Shown: positions 2,573 through 9,817, numbered from the stretch's first letter. The stretch: DNA of 40,305 bases from a virus (IMGVR_UViG_2721755720_000005); one strand, 5' to 3'. The notes: generated from the sequence alone by a model not told the origin. A program made the numbers and translations.

Positions 2573-3505
2573 ATGACCGATATAAACGATGTAATCAAGA
2601 CCATTGATGAACTTATTGATGGCGGCGTACTGACGCAGTATGCCATCGCCAGAGAGGCGGGAATTTCCGACGGCACATTATCGGCTTTCCGTAAGGGGAA
2701 ATATAAAGGCGATAACGCTGCTGTGGCTGCATCCCTGTGTTCCTGGTATGAGAACTGGAATAAACAAAGCGCACTGCCCGAGCCGCCGCAGTTTGTGGAA
2801 ACGCAGACAGTCCAGGAGCTGCGCGCACTGTTTCAGGCGGTTCGCCTGATGGGCTGTATTAACGTCATCGTGGGCGTACCGGGTGTGGGTAAAACGGCCA
2901 CGGCCCGTAATTACTGTCAGGAGCAACCGAACACCTGGATGATCACCCTGTCGCCTGCGCATTCCAGCGTCACGGAGTGTCTGCTGGAGCTGGCAGAGGA
3001 ACTGGGGATTGATTACACCCGCGCGAACAAAGGGGCATTATCCCGCGCAATCCGCCGTCGCCTGATGGGAACGCGTGGACTGGTGATTGTTGATGAGGCG
3101 GATCATCTTGGTATTGACGGTCTGGAGCAACTGCGGGCAATCCAGGACGCCACGGGGATCGGGATGGTGCTTATTGGTAACCCGCGCGGACTGTTTAAAG
3201 GTGGACGCCGCGCCGTTGATGATTTATCGCGCCTGTTCAGCCGTCTTGCCCGTACAAAACAACTTCGCAAGGCCAAAAAGGCGGATGTGCTGGCCATTGC
3301 CAGGGCATGGGGGATCAGTGGTGAGGCCGAGCTGGCCGTCATGCAGGCTATCGCTGAAAAACCGGGAGCATTACGTGTTCTGACGCATACGCTTAACCAG
3401 GCGTGGATCACCGCCAGTGGTGAAGGCGCTGTGCTGACAGAAAAACATATTAATGCGGCCTTTAAAGAGGTTTATACCAACCCTGAATTACTCTCACAGG
3501 TGTGA
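2573..3505 (+). CDS. B: Mu B-like AAA+ ATPase, transposition target DNA activator
   Basis: 310 aa; Walker A GVPGVGKT, Walker B-like VIVDEAD; N-terminal HTH; follows A. Confidence 0.9.
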   Translation: MTDINDVIKTIDELIDGGVLTQYAIAREAGISDGTLSAFRKGKYKGDNAAVAASLCSWYENWNKQSALPEPPQFVETQTVQELRALFQAVRLMGCINVIVGVPGVGKTATARNYCQEQPNTWMITLSPAHSSVTECLLELAEELGIDYTRANKGALSRAIRRRLMGTRGLVIVDEADHLGIDGLEQLRAIQDATGIGMVLIGNPRGLFKGGRRAVDDLSRLFSRLARTKQLRKAKKADVLAIARAWGISGEAELAVMQAIAEKPGALRVLTHTLNQAWITASGEGAVLTEKHINAAFKEVYTNPELLSQV

Positions 3506-3507
3506 TT

Positions 3508-3729
3508 ATGGCGATATTTAATATTCCTGATATTTACGGACGCTTTTACCTGATTAATTTCGATAACGTCAAAGCAGTCTCCACGTCTGACAGTAAAGAA
3601 TGTGGCGATTTACTCTTTGAATTTAATGATCGCACCCGAATGGCAATATCGGCAGGGCTTGATCGTGAAGGTGCGAAAGAAGCTTACAGCAATATTTGTC
3701 GCTTTATCGGTGCAAGACGGGTTAGTTAA
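3508..3729 (+). CDS. Hypothetical early protein
   Basis: ORF track 3502-3729 starts at GTG; ATG at 3508 with AGGTG upstream chosen as start; no recognisable domain. Confidence 0.45.
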   Translation: MAIFNIPDIYGRFYLINFDNVKAVSTSDSKECGDLLFEFNDRTRMAISAGLDREGAKEAYSNICRFIGARRVS

Positions 3730-3741
3730 ACGAGGTGTTAT

Positions 3742-4164
3742 ATGAATACGCAGATACAGCAGGAAATTAATGCTCTTCGTCACTTTCACAGGCAGAACGA
3801 CAATGCCGGAGTGGTTTGTGATTATATCTGGACGTCGATAAACAGAAGCACTGGCGTATGTTTCCTGTGTCTGGACGTATATCAGTTGTATGCCGACCTG
3901 CAACCTGAATCCATCCGGCGCCGTTTTAATGGTGAGTGCTTTAATGAGGATGTCTGGGAAGGCCTGCGCTTTGGTTTTCTGATACCGGGTGATTATCGCC
4001 GGGAGTGGCGACACGGTTACTCCATCCTTCGGGCAATAATGCGTGGCAAAACCCGAAAAATTCCGGGGATGGGTAAGGTTAATCGCGGCCTCCTGTTAGA
4101 GATGGCAGCAGCGCACATGAATCCATTACTGATACAACCGGAGTTCACTTATGAATTTGTTTGA
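3742..4164 (+). CDS. Hypothetical early protein
   Basis: 140-aa ORF in the co-directional early operon; no recognisable motif. Confidence 0.5.
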   Translation: MNTQIQQEINALRHFHRQNDNAGVVCDYIWTSINRSTGVCFLCLDVYQLYADLQPESIRRRFNGECFNEDVWEGLRFGFLIPGDYRREWRHGYSILRAIMRGKTRKIPGMGKVNRGLLLEMAAAHMNPLLIQPEFTYEFV

Positions 4165-4381
4165 TTCACTGAATAACGCCCGTCGACTGACCGAACTTGC
4201 CGGTGCGGTACTGGAGCGCAGCAAACGCTACCCGCAACGCTTTGCACTGAAAACCACGCCGCCGCTAAGCAAGGTTCAGGGGACTGGGGAGGAAATTGAA
4301 ATCACCGTTAAGACCAATGGCCTGCGCCGCCGTGTAAAAGCCACCCGCATCAGCGGCTGCACGGTTTACTGGGAAGTATGA
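4151..4381 (+). CDS. Hypothetical small early protein
   Basis: 76-aa ORF overlapping neighbours by a few codons, as in translationally coupled phage operons. Confidence 0.45.
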   Translation: MNLFDSLNNARRLTELAGAVLERSKRYPQRFALKTTPPLSKVQGTGEEIEITVKTNGLRRRVKATRISGCTVYWEV

Positions 4382-4455
4382 AGTTGCTTCATGGTTCGGC
4401 TCTGTCATCAGGTCAGACGCCGGGTCAGTTATCCGAACAAAACGAGAGCCAGAGG

Positions 4456-4728
4456 ATGAGTAAAGTCGTACGCATTATTTTCGAATACAAGGAAGATGTT
4501 ATCTGCAAAAACTCTGATGGCAGCACGCACAGAGGGGTAAGTCTGGATATACGTTCAACCGGAATAAAGAAGAAAGATAATGGACCCGCCATGATTTTTG
4601 GGGTGGTTATGCTGGCAGAAAGCAGAAACTTCGCAGAGTTTGTGGCAATGAAAGCCAGTGCATTCATGAAAGACAGAGGCATGGCTTCCGGGGTTATTAA
4701 CGGTAATGAATTTAATCAACAGGGGTAA
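4456..4728 (+). CDS. Hypothetical early protein, paralogue 1 of a tandem pair
   Basis: ATG at 4456 preceded by AGAGG; begins MSKVVRIIFEYKED, paralogous to the next gene. Confidence 0.55.
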   Translation: MSKVVRIIFEYKEDVICKNSDGSTHRGVSLDIRSTGIKKKDNGPAMIFGVVMLAESRNFAEFVAMKASAFMKDRGMASGVINGNEFNQQG

Positions 4729-4732
4729 TTCC

Positions 4733-5026
4733 ATGAGCAAAGTACGCGTTATTTTTGAATTTAATCATGTTTCGCATGACGAAAAGTTGGCAGGCAATGA
4801 CTGTGTTGAAGTGCATGAAAAGATTGGAGTGGATGTGAAAACAGAACGTGATACGGATAACAGCCCGACGTCACTCTGTGACGTTTATGCAAGTATTCTC
4901 CAGTATCACAGTCCTGCAATTATTCAGTTTCTCTCAGCGGAATTTCAGGCATCTGCACAGGCTTTTGGAGCGGATGCCATCATTAAACGCCACCGCGTGC
5001 ATAAAGCATCAGGCACACTGCAATAA
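4733..5026 (+). CDS. Hypothetical early protein, paralogue 2 of a tandem pair
   Basis: ATG at 4733 preceded by AGGGG; begins MSKVRVIFEFNHV, similar to the previous gene. Confidence 0.55.
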   Translation: MSKVRVIFEFNHVSHDEKLAGNDCVEVHEKIGVDVKTERDTDNSPTSLCDVYASILQYHSPAIIQFLSAEFQASAQAFGADAIIKRHRVHKASGTLQ

Positions 5027-5037
5027 GGAAAAACAAA

Positions 5038-5568
5038 ATGGCAAAACGCGTTACAAAATTAAAGGCCGCAGCCGAGGCGGCACCGCAGACCCGTGAAGAG
5101 GTCAGCCGCGATATCCGCACTCTGGGAGATATTCAGCGAGAGGCGCTGCGCCTGGAAACGGCGATGAATGATGAAGTGGCAGAAATCACAGCCCGTTATA
5201 CGCCGCAGATTGAAAATCTTAAAAAGCAAATCAAAGTGCTTTTTAAAGGGATTCAGGACTGGTGCAAAACCAACCGTGATGAGCTGACGAACGGCGGCAA
5301 AACCAAAACAGCCAATCTGACCACCGGAACGGTGTCATGGCGGCTGGGAACGCCATCATGCAGCGTCAGCCGTGATGTGGAAGGCGTGATTGAAATGCTG
5401 CGCCGTATGGGGCTTGAGCGTTTCATCCGCACGAAAGAGGAAGTGAACAAGGAAGCGGTCCTGGCGGAGCCGGATGCGGTGAAAGGGATTGCCGGTATTA
5501 AGGTGAATAAAGGCGCTGAAAGTTTTTATGTCGAGCCTTTTGAACAGGATGCCGGACTGAATAAATAA
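5038..5568 (+). CDS. gam: Gam-like host-nuclease inhibitor (Ku-like DNA end-binding protein)
   Basis: 176 aa; strong SD AAGGA; conserved block NRDELTNGGKTKTANLTTGTVSWR and C-terminal FIRTKEEVNKEA resemble remembered Mu Gam. Confidence 0.9.
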   Translation: MAKRVTKLKAAAEAAPQTREEVSRDIRTLGDIQREALRLETAMNDEVAEITARYTPQIENLKKQIKVLFKGIQDWCKTNRDELTNGGKTKTANLTTGTVSWRLGTPSCSVSRDVEGVIEMLRRMGLERFIRTKEEVNKEAVLAEPDAVKGIAGIKVNKGAESFYVEPFEQDAGLNK

Positions 5569-5665
5569 CACCGCATTAATTATTTAAATATCACTTCATT
5601 TTAATTATGGCGCTCGCGTCAGGGGACTGCTTGCGCCTGAAAGCTGAAAATAAGGAATCGTAAAC

Positions 5666-6208
5666 ATGACATACTTTTATTTCAAATTAGACAGAACTCA
5701 GACAAATAAATATTTCACCAAATATCAACAGACTGTTTTACCGCTACGCAACAGTATTCTTCGGGCGTTACTGAAAAATACAGGCGCTGCCGGATTGCGC
5801 TTAAAGCCGTTCGCCATGGACGTAATCAGTGAGTTTTATTTTTCTGGTGCTCTGCCTGCGGGCTGGCGTAAGCGCGATGATGTGGCTTTTATCGGTGGCG
5901 GACAGTGCTTTATAGCCAGACCTGATGAGTCATGCCCTGAAGGACCGGCGATTGCCGCAATGATTGAAGCCGCTGAACGCGAGTTAAGAAAGCGTCCTGA
6001 TTTCCTTGTCTGGCTCTGTGAAAAGCTGGGAGTAATGAGAATCCCCTCCATGTTTAACACAGACTCCTGGTGGACCCCGTCGCTCTCCCGTGATGCGATG
6101 TGTGTGGTGTTTAAAGTAGGCGCTTATGGCAGGGAAATAAACGGCTGTATTCCTGAAGAATGCCAGAAAATTAAACGTTCTGAATATGTGGCGCTGACGG
6201 AGGAATAA
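5666..6208 (+). CDS. Hypothetical early protein
   Basis: 180-aa ORF with SD AAGGA; no recognisable motif. Confidence 0.6.
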   Translation: MTYFYFKLDRTQTNKYFTKYQQTVLPLRNSILRALLKNTGAAGLRLKPFAMDVISEFYFSGALPAGWRKRDDVAFIGGGQCFIARPDESCPEGPAIAAMIEAAERELRKRPDFLVWLCEKLGVMRIPSMFNTDSWWTPSLSRDAMCVVFKVGAYGREINGCIPEECQKIKRSEYVALTEE

Positions 6209-6211
6209 TTC

Positions 6212-6745
6212 ATGATTGATGCAAAAGTGCTTGAAGGGGTTAAAAACTGGCTGCGTATTTATGGCCGCCTGACCTGCGGTGTACTGGCTGAAAAAATGAA
6301 TATGCCGCCATCCTCCATGGTTTATTTTCTGCGTGATGCGGTTGATGCAGGCGTGCTGACGGAATGTAACGGTTTTTATGATATTCCGCGTCCCCGCCCG
6401 GTGCAGCCGGTTCGTCGCAAATGCAGCCAGGAATGTGCGGCTGATGATGTTCAGTGGTGCAGCTTCAGAAAATCCCTGCCGTGGATTGAGGGGCATGATA
6501 TTCCGTCGATGGCGTGGGAATTTGCTCAGGGAGTTCTGACCTGCGAAACCGTTTATGTGGTGGCTGAAGTTGATGAGCAGGCCATGAAAGAAGGCGTGCC
6601 CCAGTTTGTGATGGCGTATATCGACATTCGCCTGGGTGTCATCATCTGCGGTTTAAGCGGCTGGAATATCACCGCGCGTGTTCTGCGCTACCTGATTGTT
6701 GACCGGACAGCAGCGCCTGCCGGGATATCTGCGGAGGTGGCGTAA
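6212..6745 (+). CDS. Hypothetical early protein with N-terminal winged-helix-like segment
   Basis: 177-aa ORF with SD GGAGG; Cys-rich middle region. Confidence 0.6.
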   Translation: MIDAKVLEGVKNWLRIYGRLTCGVLAEKMNMPPSSMVYFLRDAVDAGVLTECNGFYDIPRPRPVQPVRRKCSQECAADDVQWCSFRKSLPWIEGHDIPSMAWEFAQGVLTCETVYVVAEVDEQAMKEGVPQFVMAYIDIRLGVIICGLSGWNITARVLRYLIVDRTAAPAGISAEVA

Positions 6746-7260
6746 TGTTCTTTAAAACATCAAACCCTTCCGCGCTGGCTGCGTGGCAAAAATACCAGCA
6801 GGACTGCCAGACGGTAAAAGATGAAGCGAAACGCCTTGAGGCTGTGCTGAATGTTGCGTGCCGGTCGGTATTTGAATTCAGTATCAGTGGTTTTTGTTTT
6901 AAGGGACTGCGTTTTACGGAGGACAAATATCCTTTTCATCGCGACTTATGGCGAAAACCGACTGCGTCGAATGGCTGGAGCTGCACACCGCGCACATCAC
7001 GTATCCCTAAAGCCCTGCGTGTTGCCTCTGATGAACTGAACAGTCTGTGGCGTGAATATTCGCCCGTCACGTATGCCAGAACCGATGCCCTGTTGTTCTG
7101 GCTGGGCATTGACTTCTCAGCAATACTGTTTGGCCCTGTAAAGTGGTTCTGCGTTGACGATGTGATTTACCTTGAGTGTGGCGTAAAACCCGCAAAACAG
7201 AAAATGACCGAAATTCTGTCGGATGAGTTTTATGCTACTGAAAAGCGAGTCAGGGGGTGA
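6745..7260 (+). CDS. Hypothetical early protein
   Basis: 171-aa ORF with SD GGAGGTG; start overlaps the upstream stop. Confidence 0.6.
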   Translation: MFFKTSNPSALAAWQKYQQDCQTVKDEAKRLEAVLNVACRSVFEFSISGFCFKGLRFTEDKYPFHRDLWRKPTASNGWSCTPRTSRIPKALRVASDELNSLWREYSPVTYARTDALLFWLGIDFSAILFGPVKWFCVDDVIYLECGVKPAKQKMTEILSDEFYATEKRVRG

Positions 7261-7263
7261 TGC

Positions 7264-7815
7264 ATGATGATATTACAACCCATGGGACGAAAAGGTCGTG
7301 CACCCGCTCATGTCCGCGTATGGACACCTGAAGAAGATGCGCTGCTGATTGCGCTTTATTCATCCACCCCGGTTAAGGATATTGCTGCCAGAATAAAAAG
7401 AACTGTCTGGGCTGTATATAACCGGACTGGTGTATTGCGCAGTACATACCCGGAGTTGCTGAAATATAAACACCCCAGATTTACACCTGATGAAGATAAG
7501 TTTATTCGAAAAAATGCCAGAACAATGACCTGCCAGCAAATGGGAGAATATCTCGGACGTAATAAAGATTCTGTCAGATGTCGGGCAGGAATGATTGGTG
7601 CCGGATTAACAAAGTGCGGAGAGTTACGCCCCGGTACGCGCATATCTGATGATGATGTACGTCTTATACGTGCGCTGCGTGATTCCGATTACCCACGCCG
7701 TCTGTCATTCCGGGAAATTGGCGAAAAGTTTGGAATATCTGAACATTCTGCTCACGCAGTTTATTACCGTCGCCGGACCGCCGAGGACGCTGTATTACGG
7801 GAGTTAACGCCATGA
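7264..7815 (+). CDS. Putative DNA-binding protein with tandem HTH-like repeats
   Basis: 183 aa; two similar repeats (WTPEEDALLIALY... and FTPDEDKFIRKNA...) plus a C-terminal HTH-like segment. Confidence 0.6.
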   Translation: MMILQPMGRKGRAPAHVRVWTPEEDALLIALYSSTPVKDIAARIKRTVWAVYNRTGVLRSTYPELLKYKHPRFTPDEDKFIRKNARTMTCQQMGEYLGRNKDSVRCRAGMIGAGLTKCGELRPGTRISDDDVRLIRALRDSDYPRRLSFREIGEKFGISEHSAHAVYYRRRTAEDAVLRELTP

Positions 7816-8141
7816 TAACGACATTATTTGTTGAATCAGATGAACCTCTTGTGTGTGCCGCCGGAATGCCGATCTGTGGCGGAACGCTGACCGGTGTTTA
7901 TTTCGGGGATTTACGAGGTTATCCCTGGCATTCACTGAATGATGCTTTCCCGCCTGATATGGGGGCTGTCGTGCTGATTGTTCAGTATGGTCACCGTCAG
8001 GAGCTGCGCATCGGCCATATGGGGTATGAAGGCTTTTTTGTTGATGAAGAAACCGGAGCCTGCCTTGAAGATGAGGACGGACAGGTGACGCACTGGTGTC
8101 ATATTTCGGCTTTACCGGAATTACGGGAGGTGAATGCGTGA
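7812..8141 (+). CDS. Hypothetical early protein
   Basis: 109-aa ORF with SD GGGAG; overlaps neighbours. Confidence 0.55.
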   Translation: MITTLFVESDEPLVCAAGMPICGGTLTGVYFGDLRGYPWHSLNDAFPPDMGAVVLIVQYGHRQELRIGHMGYEGFFVDEETGACLEDEDGQVTHWCHISALPELREVNA

Positions 8142-8506
8142 GAAGTTATATTGATAATGAAAAGCTGGAGACAATAAGCGACTGTCTTAGCTTGCTGGCA
8201 AAAATAAAAGAAACTATTGAAGAGATTAAATTTCAGCTTGAATACGCACCATGTGGCGATGATGCATGGCGTAATGCTGCCAGAAAAGCACTGGCTGTCT
8301 TTCAGAAACAACGCCGGGCTGTTGAATACCGCCTTGCTGTATTGCGCCAGGAGGAAAAGGAAAGAAATATAAGACGTCATGAACGCGTTAATGATTTCCT
8401 TGTTCGTGAATTAAAAGAGCGTGTGCCGGAATCGGTATTTTTTGAATGTGAGGCTATTGCCCGTAGCAAAGCCCTGGTGACTGTGCCGAGTGCCGCAGAA
8501 GACTGA
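8138..8506 (+). CDS. Hypothetical coiled-coil early protein
   Basis: ORF track 8096-8506; GTG at 8138 overlapping the upstream stop and preceded by GGGAGG chosen as start; charged helical sequence. Confidence 0.5.
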   Translation: MRSYIDNEKLETISDCLSLLAKIKETIEEIKFQLEYAPCGDDAWRNAARKALAVFQKQRRAVEYRLAVLRQEEKERNIRRHERVNDFLVRELKERVPESVFFECEAIARSKALVTVPSAAED

Positions 8507-8521
8507 ATAAGGAGAAAGATA

Positions 8522-8818
8522 ATGGACAGTAGTTCGCAGTTGTTCTGGTGTTTATATATCACATCGTTTTTCGGTGCATTCGTCATTACACGATGGCTGT
8601 GCCGGAAAGTTATCAGTATTTTTCATAAAAAATACCTGATTGGGCTGGCGGCGACTTCTCTGATTAATGCACTGGCCAGATATCATAAGGGGGAATGCTA
8701 CTCAAGAATAAAAACTGATGATGGTTTTAATATTTTTGTGATTCCTCCGGAGTATCGGGTTCAGCTCGATCGGGAAAATAATATCTATCATATCAGCAGG
8801 AGTGTTGATACAGCATGA
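8522..8818 (+). CDS. Small membrane protein, function unknown
   Basis: 98 aa; strong SD AAGGAG; hydrophobic N-terminal helix; locally AT-rich. Confidence 0.55.
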   Translation: MDSSSQLFWCLYITSFFGAFVITRWLCRKVISIFHKKYLIGLAATSLINALARYHKGECYSRIKTDDGFNIFVIPPEYRVQLDRENNIYHISRSVDTA

Positions 8819-9324
8819 GAGGGAAACTGATATCCGCTATTCATGTGGCAAAACGCGAGCTTGCTCTGGATGATGAGACCTACACATCCGTACTACTGGC
8901 AGCCATCGGCAAACCCAGTTGCCGTGATATGTCACCGGATGAGTTATCCCGCGTGCTGGATGTTTTCAAAAAACGCGGTTTTAAAGTGCGTCAGAAACCG
9001 GTTAACCGGGCGTTAAAACCGGGGACGGTGACCGCCAAAATTCGCGCCATCTGGAAGGTGATGCACCAGCAGGGATTTATCTCTGATGGCGGGGAAACGG
9101 CCCTTAACCGCTGGGTGAAATCGCAGACGGCCGCGCAGAACGGCGGCGAAGGTGTGGCTAACTGGCAGTGGCTGGAGCAACACCCCGCGCTGGCCTCTGA
9201 TGTGCTGGAGCGTCTCAAACGCTGGCACCGTCGCAAGATGCTGGATGCGCTGGGGATGTCAGCGCGTACAGTGATGAGTTATGAGCGCGTTTGCAGGCTG
9301 TATGAAGAATCCTCCCCCTTTTAA
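8815..9324 (+). CDS. gemA: GemA-like early regulatory protein (DUF1018 family)
   Basis: 169 aa; N-terminal KLISAIHVAKRELALDDETY pattern typical of GemA family; last early gene before a terminator. Confidence 0.75.
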   Translation: MRGKLISAIHVAKRELALDDETYTSVLLAAIGKPSCRDMSPDELSRVLDVFKKRGFKVRQKPVNRALKPGTVTAKIRAIWKVMHQQGFISDGGETALNRWVKSQTAAQNGGEGVANWQWLEQHPALASDVLERLKRWHRRKMLDALGMSARTVMSYERVCRLYEESSPF

Positions 9325-9328
9325 CCCC

Positions 9329-9360
9329 AAATCCCGCCACAGCGCGGGATTTTTATTTTA
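9329..9360 (+). terminator. Rho-independent terminator at the end of the early operon
   Basis: 9-bp stem AAATCCCGC/GCGGGATTT with 6-nt loop followed by TTTTTATTTT. Confidence 0.6.
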
Positions 9361-9394: not shown

Positions 9395-9817
9395 ATGGCT
9401 GAAACACAGATGAGCATGTTTGGTGACAGCGAACAGCTGCACGCGCTGATTGACCGTCTGGATGACATTCCTGATGATGAGCTGAAAAAGAACTGGCCCG
9501 GCACGCTGCGGGACCTGGTTGATGTGATCAGTGCTGAACTGCACCGTCAGGGGATTGAACCTGCTCAGGCGGGAATGCTTGCCCGTAAGGTTGCGGCCGC
9601 ACAGGCCGGGTACATGGGCGGGCGTGGTTATTATCTCCCGGTCGGTGAATCCCTTTTCACCGAACTGCGCAATAATGAGATTTTTTCCCGCTGGAGCCAG
9701 GGCGAAAAAATTGAAACCCTGCGCCGCCACTACCAGATGTCAGAGACGCAGATTTACTCCGTTATCCGTAACCAGCGCCGCCTGCATCAGGAACGCACGC
9801 AGCCCCGGCTTTTCTGA
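9395..9817 (+). CDS. Mor/C-family transcriptional activator (middle/late gene activator)
   Basis: 140 aa; SD GGAGG; C-terminal HTH; sits between the early terminator and the lysis genes. Confidence 0.8.
   Translation: MAETQMSMFGDSEQLHALIDRLDDIPDDELKKNWPGTLRDLVDVISAELHRQGIEPAQAGMLARKVAAAQAGYMGGRGYYLPVGESLFTELRNNEIFSRWSQGEKIETLRRHYQMSETQIYSVIRNQRRLHQERTQPRLF

What the first reader, a model, noticed from the sequence alone, without database searches (positions are those of the whole stretch)
5666..8818. Block of seven early genes of unknown function between gam and gemA
In Mu the semi-essential early region carries host-takeover and anti-defence functions (Gam, Kil and others). Here seven consecutive ORFs of 98-183 aa have good ribosome-binding sites and coupling overlaps but no recognisable family. 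They include a protein with tandem HTH-like repeats (7264-7815) and a small AT-rich membrane protein (8522-8818). These are candidates for anti-restriction or other counter-defence factors.
Basis: inference. Interest (0 to 1): 0.55.

Follow-up and report, generated by a model that had tools for sequence, protein, structure and literature searches.

The report
Mu-like prophage accessory early gene block
The seven genes are real but ordinary: they are the uncharacterised accessory half of the early operon of a Mu-like E. coli prophage. Two are copies of Mu genes gp11 and gp12, and nothing found here shows that any of them blocks bacterial defences.

Summary
All seven + strand ORFs (5666-8818) are real genes. 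Each has a Shine-Dalgarno site, the junctions are tight or overlapping, dN/dS is 0.07-0.55, and each matches a PHROG family. The window is an Sp18-type Mu-like prophage of E. coli.

"No recognisable family" is only partly true:
- p2 is the orthologue of Mu gp11 (Pfam Gp11_C).
- p3 is the orthologue of Mu gp12 (Pfam Phage_Mu_Gp12).
- p4 is a basic protein with three Myb/homeodomain-like HTH repeats.
- p1 has almost no sequence relatives, but its AlphaFold model has the gp12 fold. That fold has no solved relative.
- p5 (acidic), p6 (coiled coil) and p7 (membrane-anchored) are lineage-specific.

The block is a mosaic. The p1-gp11-gp12 module is conserved. The p4-p7 zone is shuffled, with relatives in P2-like and HK97-like phages.

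No protein matches a defence family or a family annotated as anti-restriction or host takeover, and p3 has no solved structural relative. The counter-defence idea is plausible but unsupported.

A conserved RNA hairpin with compensatory base changes (5609-5637) sits just upstream, and a terminator follows gemA.

Function remains unknown. My best guess is dispensable early host- or DNA-modulating proteins.

The parts
5599..5637 (+). Conserved non-coding element in the gam-p1 gap. It has an AU-rich box UUUUAAUUAU (5599-5608) and a two-tier hairpin (5609-5637): outer helix GGCGC/GCGCC, inner helix GUC/GAC, AGGG tetraloop. It marks the 5' boundary of the block.
   Evidence: It is nearly invariant between the window, Mu, L053 and L054, although the flanking proteins are only 33-68% identical. 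On 40 distinct sequences 93.5% of cells pair, against 33-59% for slid controls. Compensatory pairs are CG27/UA13 and GC14/AU8 with none broken. G-C to G-U changes work only on the + strand. The same fold is predicted in 4 variants. The 5' stem is kept in about 48 of 53 variants found with a 3'-anchored pattern. No Rfam family matches.
5666..6208 (+). p1, 180 aa, pI 8.7. A narrow family (phrog_2260) absent from Mu. The predicted fold is the same as gp12 (p3).
   Evidence: PHROG 1.1e-72. Only 13 clusters, all E. coli. Five hits among 1.84e9 representatives. AF2 pLDDT 89.1. Same order of secondary-structure elements as p3, and overlapping BFVD neighbours. Distant homologues sit at the same position after gam or DUF3164.
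6212..6745 (+). p2, 177 aa, orthologue of Mu gp11. It has a conserved N-terminal winged-HTH-like domain (1-63), a variable linker and a Gp11_C domain (90-167).
   Evidence: Pfam PF25754 4.6e-40, weak HTH_20. 68% identical to Mu_11 over its full length. Alignment A5. The N-terminal domain stands alone in L053. No PDB sequence relative.
6745..7260 (+). p3, 171 aa, orthologue of Mu gp12 (Pfam Phage_Mu_Gp12). An alpha/beta fold with no solved relative.
7264..7815 (+). p4, 183 aa, pI 10.0, three tandem Myb/SANT- or homeodomain-like HTH repeats. Probably a DNA-binding protein.
   Evidence: Sub-threshold Pfam Myb, HTH_AsnC and HTH_10; phrog_323 8.8e-52. Profile against PDB: 2lvs 4.4e-4, Mos1 transposase HTH region 0.014, MYB21 and B-MYB about 1. 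A 36% homologue lies in the early region of the P2-like phage Shae_phiSM, and the repeats adjoin HNH or methylase genes in mycobacteriophages. A nonsense allele occurs in L049.
7812..8141 (+). p5, 109 aa, acidic (pI 4.3, net charge -13), lineage-specific (phrog_6925).
   Evidence: It is 85% identical in L054, where neighbouring genes are only 37-63% identical, which indicates recent exchange.
8138..8506 (+). p6, 122 aa from GTG 8138 (136 aa if from GTG 8096). Helical, coiled-coil-like (phrog_6158).
   Evidence: SD and GTGA overlap. The 122-aa product is the deposited protein. About 40% homologues lie next to xis/int in HK97-like phages Fraca and SaltyDalty. Only weak coiled-coil matches in PDB.
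8522..8818 (+). p7, 98 aa, 40% GC. A probable N-terminal membrane anchor (residues about 5-27) plus a variable C-terminal domain (phrog_17269).
   Evidence: Residues 1-29 are almost identical between two alleles, while the rest is far more diverged. No homologue outside this prophage group was found in the phage collection.
8815..9352 (+). 3' boundary: gemA (8815-9324), translationally coupled to p7, followed by an intrinsic-terminator-like hairpin with a T-run (9329-9352).
   Evidence: Pfam GemA 2.7e-29. ATGA overlap. Terminator with 9 pairs, then TTATTTT.

Best explanation
The block is the distal, dispensable part of the early (Pe-driven, 'semi-essential') operon of an Sp18-type Mu-like prophage of E. 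coli. Seven translationally coupled genes would be expressed in the first minutes of lytic development.

It is a mosaic of two parts.
1. A conserved module sits directly after gam: p1, gp11 (p2) and gp12 (p3). p2 is a winged-HTH protein with a Gp11_C domain. p1 and p3 are two very divergent copies of one phage-specific alpha/beta fold.
2. A cassette zone (p4-p7) exchanges members with other temperate phages. It holds a basic triple-HTH DNA-binding protein, a small acidic protein, a coiled-coil protein and a membrane-anchored protein.

Most likely mode of action (inferred, not shown): these are accessory host- or DNA-modulating proteins. p2 and p4 would bind DNA. p1, p3, p5 and p6 would bind host or phage proteins. 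p7 would act at the inner membrane. Together they would tune replication/transposition or host physiology, as the neighbours Kil, Gam and GemA do.

Shown: gene reality, orthology to Mu gp11 and gp12, domain content, the shared fold, the mosaicism, and the flanking RNA hairpin and terminator.

Inferred: early co-transcription (by analogy with Mu), dispensability, DNA binding, and every functional role.
For: Gene reality:
- SD sites and coupling, dN/dS 0.07-0.55, PHROG hits for all seven, no PHROG hit for the antisense ORFs.

Mu context:
- ner, A, B, kil, gam, gemA, mor and lysozyme lie in Mu order.
- The Mu early transcript runs from ner to C, and the SE genes are 'largely unknown' (PMC3820752).
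- p2 = Mu gp11 and p3 = Mu gp12.

p1 and p3 share a fold:
- The order of secondary-structure elements is identical.
- Seven of the top eight BFVD neighbours of p3 are among the top twelve of p1.

Conserved trio:
- It is kept in the diverged prophage L054 (p1 37%, p2 63%, p3 50%) while p4, p6 and p7 are absent.
- 22 of 91 hairpin-bearing loci (IMG/VR contigs plus loci fetched earlier) carry all three and 24 carry gp11+gp12.

Cassette behaviour:
- A two-gene indel lies between p6 and p7.
- p4 is 71% and p7 52% identical in L002 amid flanks of 90-97%.
- p4 has a nonsense allele.
- p4 has a homologue in a P2-like phage and p6 has homologues in HK97-like phages.

Variable slot:
- The gam-gemA interval is 0.1-5.1 kb in 24 other Mu-like prophages, and its 87 ORFs fall into about 60 clusters.
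- None of p1-p7 is detectable there.
- Where those slot genes are recognisable they are HU-like, RdgC, DUF2786/DUF7168, HNH, a reverse transcriptase and a SutA RNAP-binding domain.
Against: - No function was demonstrated for any of the seven.
- DNA binding by p2 and p4 rests on weak HTH matches: HTH_20 at E 0.093 and Myb below the gathering score.
- The p1/p3 relationship is not significant by sequence (hhalign E 0.1-0.3, probability <1%). It rests on two AlphaFold models, one built from only 10 sequences.
- Co-transcription from Pe and dispensability are carried over from Mu, not measured here.
- The p7 transmembrane call is borderline by hydropathy in this allele.
Confidence: 0.6

Rival explanations
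1. Counter-defence island. One or more of the seven proteins, most plausibly in the variable p4-p7 zone, inhibits a host restriction or abortive-infection system early in infection, alongside Gam.
For: - Position in the early operon directly after Gam. A preprint reports a Mu-type Gam with anti-SIR2+HerA and anti-DUF4297+HerA activity (10.1101/2024.04.14.589459).
- Cassette shuffling and indels.
- p5 is small and strongly acidic (pI 4.3), as DNA-mimic inhibitors are (my own knowledge).
- The p7 alleles share the anchor but have diverged in the C-terminal domain.
- A p6 homologue lies three genes downstream of a Lar-like restriction-alleviation gene in phage SaltyDalty.
- p6 and p7 have lower GC, 44% and 40%.
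Against: - No hit to any annotated anti-restriction or host-takeover family in Pfam, PHROGs or NCBIfam, and none to PADLOC.
- No PDB sequence hit. p3 has no solved structural neighbour, although many anti-defence structures are in PDB.
- dN/dS <= 0.55 for all seven.
- p1-p3 are conserved rather than variable.
- p5 and p6 were not found on genuine plasmids.
- Recognisable genes at this position in other Mu-like prophages are not known anti-defence genes.
Confidence: 0.3
2. Replication/transposition or nucleoid-level helper module. The conserved trio p1-gp11-gp12, possibly with p4, binds DNA or host DNA-transaction proteins to boost Mu-type replicative transposition or to reprogram host transcription. 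This would be comparable to GemA, or to the classical unassigned 'arm' (amplified replication of Mu) function.
For: - p2 has a conserved wHTH-like N-terminal domain, and p4 is a basic triple-HTH protein.
- The trio is syntenic with gam, or with its positional substitute DUF3164, across diverged phages.
- In other Mu-like prophages the same slot holds HU-like proteins, RdgC and a SutA RNAP-binding domain.
- The neighbours Gam and GemA act on DNA ends and on ligase/gyrase functions (PMC3820752).
Against: - No homology to any known replication, recombination or transcription factor.
- The link to 'arm' comes from memory of the older Mu literature and could not be checked in the library.
- The gp12 fold has no solved relative.
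- p1-p3 are absent from Mu-like prophages of other genera that still transpose.
Confidence: 0.3
3. Lysogen-benefit morons. Some genes, especially the membrane protein p7, are expressed from the prophage and protect the lysogen, for example by superinfection exclusion.
For: - Low-level Pe transcription through the SE region is reported in Mu lysogens (PMC3820752).
- p7 is AT-rich, membrane-anchored and has divergent alleles.
Against: - No own promoter was detected on the + strand within the block.
- p7 is translationally coupled to gemA inside the early operon.
- No similarity to known exclusion proteins.
Confidence: 0.12
4. Some of the ORFs are not genes but chance open frames.
For: Five of the seven have no Pfam family on record.
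Against: SD sites, coupling, purifying selection, PHROG families, conservation in 231 E. coli genomes and two confident fold predictions.
Confidence: 0.02

Closest known systems
Semi-essential (SE) early region of phage Mu, genes Mu_11 (gp11) to Mu_54 between gam and gemA
   Same: Same position, strand and operon context: ner-A-B-kil...gam-[block]-gemA-mor. p2 and p3 are full-length orthologues of gp11 (68%) and gp12 (54%). The same conserved hairpin lies in the gap after gam. Functions are unknown in both (PMC3820752).
   Different: Mu has five genes here (gp11, gp12, and small gp13, gp14 and Mu_54) in 1.9 kb. The window has seven in 3.2 kb. p1 and p4-p7 have no Mu counterpart, and Mu gp13/gp14/Mu_54 have none here.
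Sp18-type Mu-like prophages of E. coli O157 and other STEC (for example strain SJ7, or the Mu-like insert in phage Stx2c_JNE082796)
   Same: Same gene set at 90-97% protein identity. Found in 231 of 5426 complete E. coli genomes, all annotated as hypothetical, 'SANT/Myb-like', 'DNA-binding' or 'AsnC family' proteins.
   Different: Most relatives carry two extra genes (110 and 65 aa; phrog_1988 and phrog_2358) between p6 and p7. Some have divergent p4 (71%) and p7 (52%) alleles, or a p4 nonsense mutation.
Accessory early-left (ea/b-type) regions of lambdoid and P2-like temperate phages
   Same: Strings of small, coupled, dispensable early genes that are shuffled between phages. p6 homologues lie next to xis/int in HK97-like phages, and a p4 homologue lies between cox and the replication gene of a P2-like phage.
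   Different: Different phage architecture, with transposition instead of integrase. No shared characterised gene, apart from the neighbourhood to a Lar-like gene in one phage.
Myb/SANT and homeodomain-like tandem HTH DNA-binding proteins (for example the Mos1 transposase N-terminal HTH pair, chain 2lvs, B-MYB)
   Same: p4 has three ~45-residue repeats with the W/F-x-x-E-E/D...HTH pattern, a strongly basic charge, and weak profile matches to these chains.
   Different: All matches are below the Pfam gathering scores. There is no catalytic or partner domain, and DNA binding is untested.
5' stem-loop stabilisers and RNase E processing sites in polycistronic phage and bacterial mRNAs
   Same: A single-stranded AU-rich tract lies immediately 5' of a stable, covarying hairpin about 15 nt before the next SD, with no U-tract. 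The functional analogy is inference from general knowledge.
   Different: No cleavage or stability data. The loop sequence (CGUCAGGGGAYUG) is itself conserved, which fits a sequence-specific protein-binding site at least as well.

Membership tests
Mu gp11 family (Pfam PF25754 Gp11_C) | Gp11_C domain scoring above the Pfam gathering threshold | tested here: met
   p2 residues 90-167 match the full 78-position model, 136.3 bits against a cut-off of 27, E 4.6e-40.
Mu gp11 family (Pfam PF25754 Gp11_C) | Full-length collinear similarity to Mu_11, in the same position between gam and gp12 | tested here: met
   68% identity over 177 aa to AF083977 6424-6951. The gene order matches Mu except for the inserted p1.
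Mu gp12 family (Pfam PF26885 Phage_Mu_Gp12) | Full-length similarity to Mu_12 and membership of the Pfam family | tested here: met
   54% identity over 169 aa to Mu 6954-7460, E 2e-59. All 42 homologous clusters, including 96%-identical ones, carry precomputed PF26885. The model itself is absent from the local Pfam copy, so p3 was not scored directly.
Mu gp12 family, extended to p1 | Significant sequence or profile similarity to gp12 | tested here: not met
   BLASTP E 0.51. hhalign E 0.3, 0.18 and 0.1 with probability <1%, although the alignment is collinear over 126-132 columns. The hits that contain p1 in the records carry no PF26885.
Mu gp12 family, extended to p1 | Same three-dimensional fold | tested here: inconclusive
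   The element order is identical (beta, long helix, beta hairpin, insert, 2-3 helices, three strands, C-terminal helix) in models with pLDDT 91.8 and 89.1. The BFVD neighbour lists overlap. No direct superposition tool was available.
Myb/SANT-like HTH DNA-binding domain | Domain match above the curated threshold | tested here: not met
   Myb_DNA-binding 19.3 bits against 24.4. Myb_DNA-bind_6 17.2 against 22.9. HTH_AsnC 19.2 against 27. HTH_10 19.0 against 23.1. No NCBIfam hit.
Myb/SANT-like HTH DNA-binding domain | Tandem helix-turn-helix repeats with basic charge and similarity to solved HTH proteins | tested here: met
   Three repeats at about 17-60, 71-114 and 123-170. pI 10.0. Profile hits: 2lvs 4.4e-4, Mos1 HTH region 0.014, MYB21 and B-MYB 0.6-1.
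Myb/SANT-like HTH DNA-binding domain | Sequence-specific DNA binding | not testable with these tools
   Needs EMSA, ChIP or SELEX.
Known anti-defence proteins (Ocr, ArdA, ArdB/KlcA, Lar/Ral, anti-CRISPRs, Gad/Tad/Had, Acb and others) | Sequence similarity to a described family | tested here: not met
   No such family appears among the Pfam, PHROG or NCBIfam hits of any of the seven. No PDB chain at E <= 0.1 for the seven single sequences, none for the p2 profile, and only HTH/transposase chains for the p4 profile. No dedicated anti-defence HMM library was available.
Known anti-defence proteins (Ocr, ArdA, ArdB/KlcA, Lar/Ral, anti-CRISPRs, Gad/Tad/Had, Acb and others) | Structural similarity to a solved inhibitor | tested here: not met
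Known anti-defence proteins (Ocr, ArdA, ArdB/KlcA, Lar/Ral, anti-CRISPRs, Gad/Tad/Had, Acb and others) | Relief of a defined defence system in vivo | not testable with these tools
   Needs phage deletion mutants or trans-expression on defence-carrying hosts.
Anti-phage defence systems (PADLOC-DB) | Match to a defence-protein model | tested here: not met
   No hit at E <= 0.1 for any of the seven.
DUF551 (recalled resemblance of the p5 C-terminus, '...VTHWCHISALPE') | Pfam DUF551 match | tested here: not met
   No Pfam family at E <= 1 for p5. Only a weak phrog_7704 hit at 0.023.
Intrinsic (Rho-independent) terminator, for the hairpin at 5609-5637 | GC-rich stem followed by a U-tract | tested here: not met
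   The stem is followed by UGAAAGCUGAAAA, and the terminator scan does not list it. By contrast, 9329-9352 after gemA meets the definition.
Rfam RNA families, for the hairpin at 5599-5637 | Covariance-model match | tested here: not met
   No match at gathering score in the whole window. Only chance-level hits (E 6-7) in 5540-5700.

The most novel reading that the evidence does not exclude
The conserved RNA hairpin and the p1-gp11-gp12 trio behind it form a previously unrecognised, separately controlled early module of enterobacterial Mu-like phages. It would contain two diverged copies of a new phage-specific fold flanking a winged-HTH protein, with expression set by processing or protein binding at the hairpin. 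The module would carry a defined activity, such as a new counter-defence mechanism or the never-assigned replication-stimulating function of Mu's semi-essential region.
Probability: 0.15. Interest if true: 0.6.

Novelty: new member of a known kind. Interest (0 to 1): 0.33.

Why it matters
The semi-essential early region of Mu has been called 'largely uncharacterised' for decades. This window does not change that, but it sharpens the question in four ways.
- The post-gam block splits into a conserved three-gene module and a shuffled cassette zone.
- gp12 and the sequence-orphan p1 appear to share a fold with no solved relative.
- One triple-HTH protein and one winged-HTH protein are the obvious candidates for DNA-binding tests.
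- A covarying RNA hairpin marks the start of the block in Mu itself and in its relatives.

All of this can be tested in Mu genetics. If any member proved to be a counter-defence or replication factor, it would apply to a prophage type present in about 4% of complete E. coli genomes, including many STEC strains.

Tried and rejected
- Concatenated p1+p3 as one query for the search for homologous proteins. It returned nothing and wasted one of three searches.
- p1 as a sequence-level paralogue of gp12. BLASTP and three hhalign runs with increasingly diverse alignments stayed non-significant. Only the fold-level relation is kept.
- p5 as a DUF551 protein (recalled motif). There is no Pfam hit.
- The AFDB50 fold library was not available, so bacterial prophage structure neighbours could not be listed.
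- Plasmid association for p5 and p6. The only hits were a 1.4-Mb record filed as a plasmid and one 43-kb Enterobacter plasmid record.
- Internal sigma-70 promoter in the gam-p1 gap. The scan finds none on the + strand. By hand, the AAnTAT box has A2 and T6 but no usable -35, and a start 6-8 nt downstream would fall inside the stem.
- The hairpin as a terminator or a small ORF. It has no U-tract. The 15-18-codon frame starting in the stem differs between Mu and the window because of a 1-nt indel, so the conservation is at nucleotide level.
- Literature searches for functions of Mu gp11 or gp12, for the mapping of 'arm', and for a processing site after gam found nothing usable.
- The look-up of encoding contigs for the exact p4 sequence found no record.

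Full report
**What the window is.** The window carries a Mu-type gene order on the + strand.
- Left arm: ner-like 177-407, transposase A 410-2497, MuB 2573-3505, then five small early ORFs that include a Kil homologue (4151-4381).
- Centre: gam 5038-5568, the seven-ORF block, gemA 8815-9324.
- Right arm: a Mor/C-family activator 9395-9817 and a lysozyme from 9889.

The seven proteins occur with exactly these sequences in an E. coli genome (APL34370.1 to APL34365.1, locus tags RG62_...). Close relatives of the block are found in 231 of 5426 complete E. coli genomes, at up to 95.9% DNA identity. They also occur in the 'inserted Mu-like phage' inside two Stx-converting phages. This is therefore the Sp18-type Mu-like prophage known from O157 and other STEC strains.

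**Checking the observation.**
- All have Shine-Dalgarno-like sequences.
- They are tightly packed, with TAATG, ATGA, GTGA and ATGA start/stop overlaps or spacers of 3-15 nt.
- Against two relatives, and against Mu where a homologue exists, dN/dS is 0.07-0.55 for every gene.
- Each matches a PHROG family at E 1e-51 to 1e-105.
- The four long antisense ORFs match nothing.

Two corrections are needed.
- The sixth gene most likely begins at GTG 8138, giving 122 aa. This start has a strong SD and a GTGA overlap with the p5 stop, the PHROG match begins there, and the 122-aa product is the deposited protein.
- The statement 'no recognisable family' needs correcting; the next section shows where.

The HTH repeats of the fourth gene and the low GC (40.4% against 53.2%) and hydrophobic N-terminus of the seventh gene are confirmed.

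**What each gene is.**
- **p2** is the orthologue of Mu gp11. It is 68% identical over its full length and matches Pfam Gp11_C at 4.6e-40. It has a highly conserved N-terminal domain of about 63 residues with a weak HTH_20 match, then a variable linker, then the Gp11_C domain. In one metagenomic relative the N-terminal domain is a separate 77-aa gene.
- **p3** is the orthologue of Mu gp12, at 54% identity. All 42 homologous clusters, from E. coli and Salmonella, carry the recent Pfam family PF26885 Phage_Mu_Gp12, which is not in the local Pfam copy.
- **p4** is basic (pI 10.0). Its three repeats score just below the Pfam thresholds for Myb and other HTH families. It matches phrog_323 ('transcriptional regulator'). 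As a profile it weakly matches solved tandem-HTH proteins (2lvs, the HTH region of Mos1 transposase, MYB21 and B-MYB).
- **p5** is small and acidic (pI 4.3).
- **p6** is helical and coiled-coil-like.
- **p7** has an N-terminal hydrophobic anchor that is almost invariant between two alleles, while the C-terminal roughly 70 residues have diverged strongly.
- **No other family matches.** p1, p4, p5, p6 and p7 have no Pfam family on record, even in the newer precomputed set. None of the seven matches NCBIfam or PADLOC.

**p1 and the gp12 fold.** p1 is not in Mu and is nearly an orphan.
- The word-indexed search found 13 clusters, all from E. coli and all at least 64% identical.
- An exhaustive HMMER pass over 1.84 billion representatives found only two more distant relatives, at 34-38% identity.
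- IMG/VR contigs add relatives down to about 28% identity.

AlphaFold models are confident for both p3 (pLDDT 91.8, 37 sequences) and p1 (pLDDT 89.1, 10 sequences, with all five models at 84-89).

Three results bear on the fold.
- The two models have the same order of elements. Both run: N-terminal strand, long helix, beta hairpin, a variable insert (a second hairpin in p1, a loop in p3), two or three helices, three strands, C-terminal helix.
- Against predicted viral structures, seven of the top eight neighbours of p3 are among the top twelve of p1. All are uncharacterised phage proteins of about 170-215 aa.

Sequence-level homology could not be shown. hhalign returns a collinear alignment of 126-132 columns, but with E 0.1-0.3. 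I conclude that p1 and gp12 most likely share a phage-specific fold with no solved relative. Common ancestry is plausible but unproven.

**Architecture and evolution of the block.** I fetched 42 Gam-encoding loci from other genera, among them Gilliamella, Haemophilus, Pseudomonas and Rhodobacter.
- GemA is detectable in 27 of the 45 loci held at that point (24 of the 42 new loci plus Mu and two E. coli relatives), and MuB in 19 of those 45.
- None of p1-p7 is detectable in any of the 42 new loci.
- Where both anchors are found, the gam-gemA distance ranges from 0.1 to 5.1 kb. The 87 ORFs in between fall into about 60 sequence clusters.
- I scanned 66 of these ORFs (near-duplicates left out). 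Only 9 Pfam families appear: DUF2786/DUF7168, HU-like proteins, RdgC, HNH, a reverse transcriptase, a SutA RNAP-binding domain and Lcl_C.

The position is therefore a variable accessory slot. Within the enterobacterial lineage the block has two parts.
- **The trio p1-gp11-gp12 is conserved.**
  - It is intact in a diverged prophage (L054: 37%, 63% and 50% identity), where Gam is replaced by a DUF3164 protein and p4, p6 and p7 are missing.
  - It recurs in many IMG/VR contigs.
- **The p4-p7 zone behaves like a set of cassettes.**
  - Most relatives carry two extra genes between p6 and p7.
  - In one relative p4 is 71% and p7 52% identical, amid flanks of 90-97%.
  - p4 carries a nonsense codon in one contig.
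  - p5 is 85% identical in L054, where its neighbours are only 37-63% identical.
  - A p4 homologue sits in the early region of a P2-like Citrobacter phage.
  - p6 homologues sit next to xis/int in HK97-like coliphages, in one case three genes downstream of a Lar-like gene.

**Boundaries.** Downstream, gemA is coupled to p7 and is followed at 9329-9352 by a strong intrinsic-terminator-like hairpin.

Upstream, the 97-nt gam-p1 gap holds an element that is far better conserved than the flanking genes. It consists of an AU-rich box (5599-5608) and a two-tier hairpin (5609-5637).
- **Distribution.**
  - It is nearly identical in Mu upstream of gp11, and in L053 and L054.
  - A pattern scan found it in 85 IMG/VR contigs.
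  - In the 93 occurrences analysed (those contigs plus the window and earlier loci), the next gene is gp11-like in 40, p1-like in 35 and something else in 10.
- **Pairing on 40 distinct sequences.**
  - 93.5% of cells pair, against 33-59% when the partners are slid.
  - Two pairs show compensatory changes with no broken case (CG 27/UA 13 and GC 14/AU 8).
  - The inner helix alternates G-C and G-U, which is valid only on the + strand. That points to an RNA structure in the early mRNA.
- **Bias check.** My first pattern fixed the 5' half, so I repeated the scan with a 3'-anchored pattern. About 48 of 53 distinct variants keep the complementary 5' arm and an A/U-rich box, and a third pair combination appears (GGCGUGA/UCACGCC).
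- **Specificity.**
  - A covariance model finds the element once in the window and nowhere in the Gam loci of other genera.
  - It does occur in more distant DUF3164-type phages that lack p1, gp11 and gp12.
  - So it is a landmark of the operon rather than part of one gene.
- **What it is not.** It is not a terminator, because it has no U-tract. It is not in Rfam, and I found no mention of it in the literature.
- **What it may be.** Its role is open. An RNase E site plus a stabilising 5' hairpin, or a protein-binding operator, are my inferences.

**Function.** Nothing here demonstrates a function. The Mu literature I could read calls these genes 'largely unknown' and places them on the Pe transcript that runs from ner to C (PMC3820752).

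- **My best-supported reading (confidence 0.6).** This is a mosaic of dispensable early accessory genes that act on DNA (p2, p4), on host or phage proteins (p1, p3, p5, p6) or at the membrane (p7).
The membership tests list the negative searches.
- **A replication or nucleoid helper role for the conserved trio (about 0.3).** This is about equally likely. It fits the HTH content and the HU, RdgC and SutA-type genes found at this position in other Mu-like phages.

**Verdict.** The block is an ordinary feature of a common prophage and has already been annotated many times as hypothetical proteins. The new points are modest: the split into module and cassettes, the fold shared by p1 and gp12 with no solved relative, and the covarying hairpin after gam that is also present in Mu.

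Noticed in passing
window 5599-5637 (also AF083977 6358-6397): A conserved AU-rich box plus a covarying two-tier hairpin lies in the gam-p1 gap. It is more conserved than the flanking genes, is present in Mu and in more than 85 IMG/VR contigs, and is absent from Rfam. Its function is unknown; a processing or stability element, or a protein-binding RNA site, are possibilities.
   Followed up: partly
window 9329-9352 and 9395-9817: A strong terminator-like hairpin sits between gemA and the only Mor/C-family gene of the window. That gene is closer to Mu C (40% identity) than to Mu Mor (28%). The middle/late regulatory layout may therefore differ from Mu, which has both Mor and C.
   Followed up: partly
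window 4151-4381: The 76-aa early ORF is a Kil homologue (phrog_2679 9.5e-39; PF26843 Kil_protein in precomputed hits). The four other small ORFs between B and gam (3502-5026) match only PHROGs of unknown function.
   Followed up: partly
L003 9339-9861; L049 and L052 5489-6011 (between the p6 and p7 homologues): Most E. coli relatives carry two extra genes (110 aa phrog_1988, 65 aa phrog_2358) that the window lacks. The p6 C-terminus differs accordingly, 116 against 122 aa.
   Followed up: partly
L054 5274-5912; L063, L080, L088, L089 and L122: In some relatives a DUF3164 protein occupies the position of Gam, directly upstream of the same hairpin. This suggests the two are positional, and perhaps functional, substitutes.
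   Followed up: no
loci L004-L041, the gam-gemA interval: Among Mu-like prophages of other genera this slot contains a reverse transcriptase (RVT_1), RdgC, HU-like proteins, an HNH endonuclease and a SutA RNAP-binding domain. Most of the ORFs scanned matched none of the nine Pfam families found.
   Followed up: partly
window 9545-9558 (+) and 30810-30823 (-): Two one-mismatch copies of the hairpin loop motif CGTCAGGRGAYTRC occur elsewhere in the window. That is 3 matches in all against 0.06 expected. The covariance model does not score them as hairpins. They remain unexplained and may be chance.
   Followed up: partly
window 31000-33000 and 35000-40305: GC drops to 0.40-0.51 from about 0.57-0.60 in the late region. 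This would fit acquired tail-fibre or accessory genes, or host flank, but I did not examine it.
   Followed up: no
L049 4249-4800: The p4 homologue carries an in-frame stop at codon 77 in one Logan assembly, so p4 can be lost without loss of the rest of the prophage sequence.
   Followed up: yes
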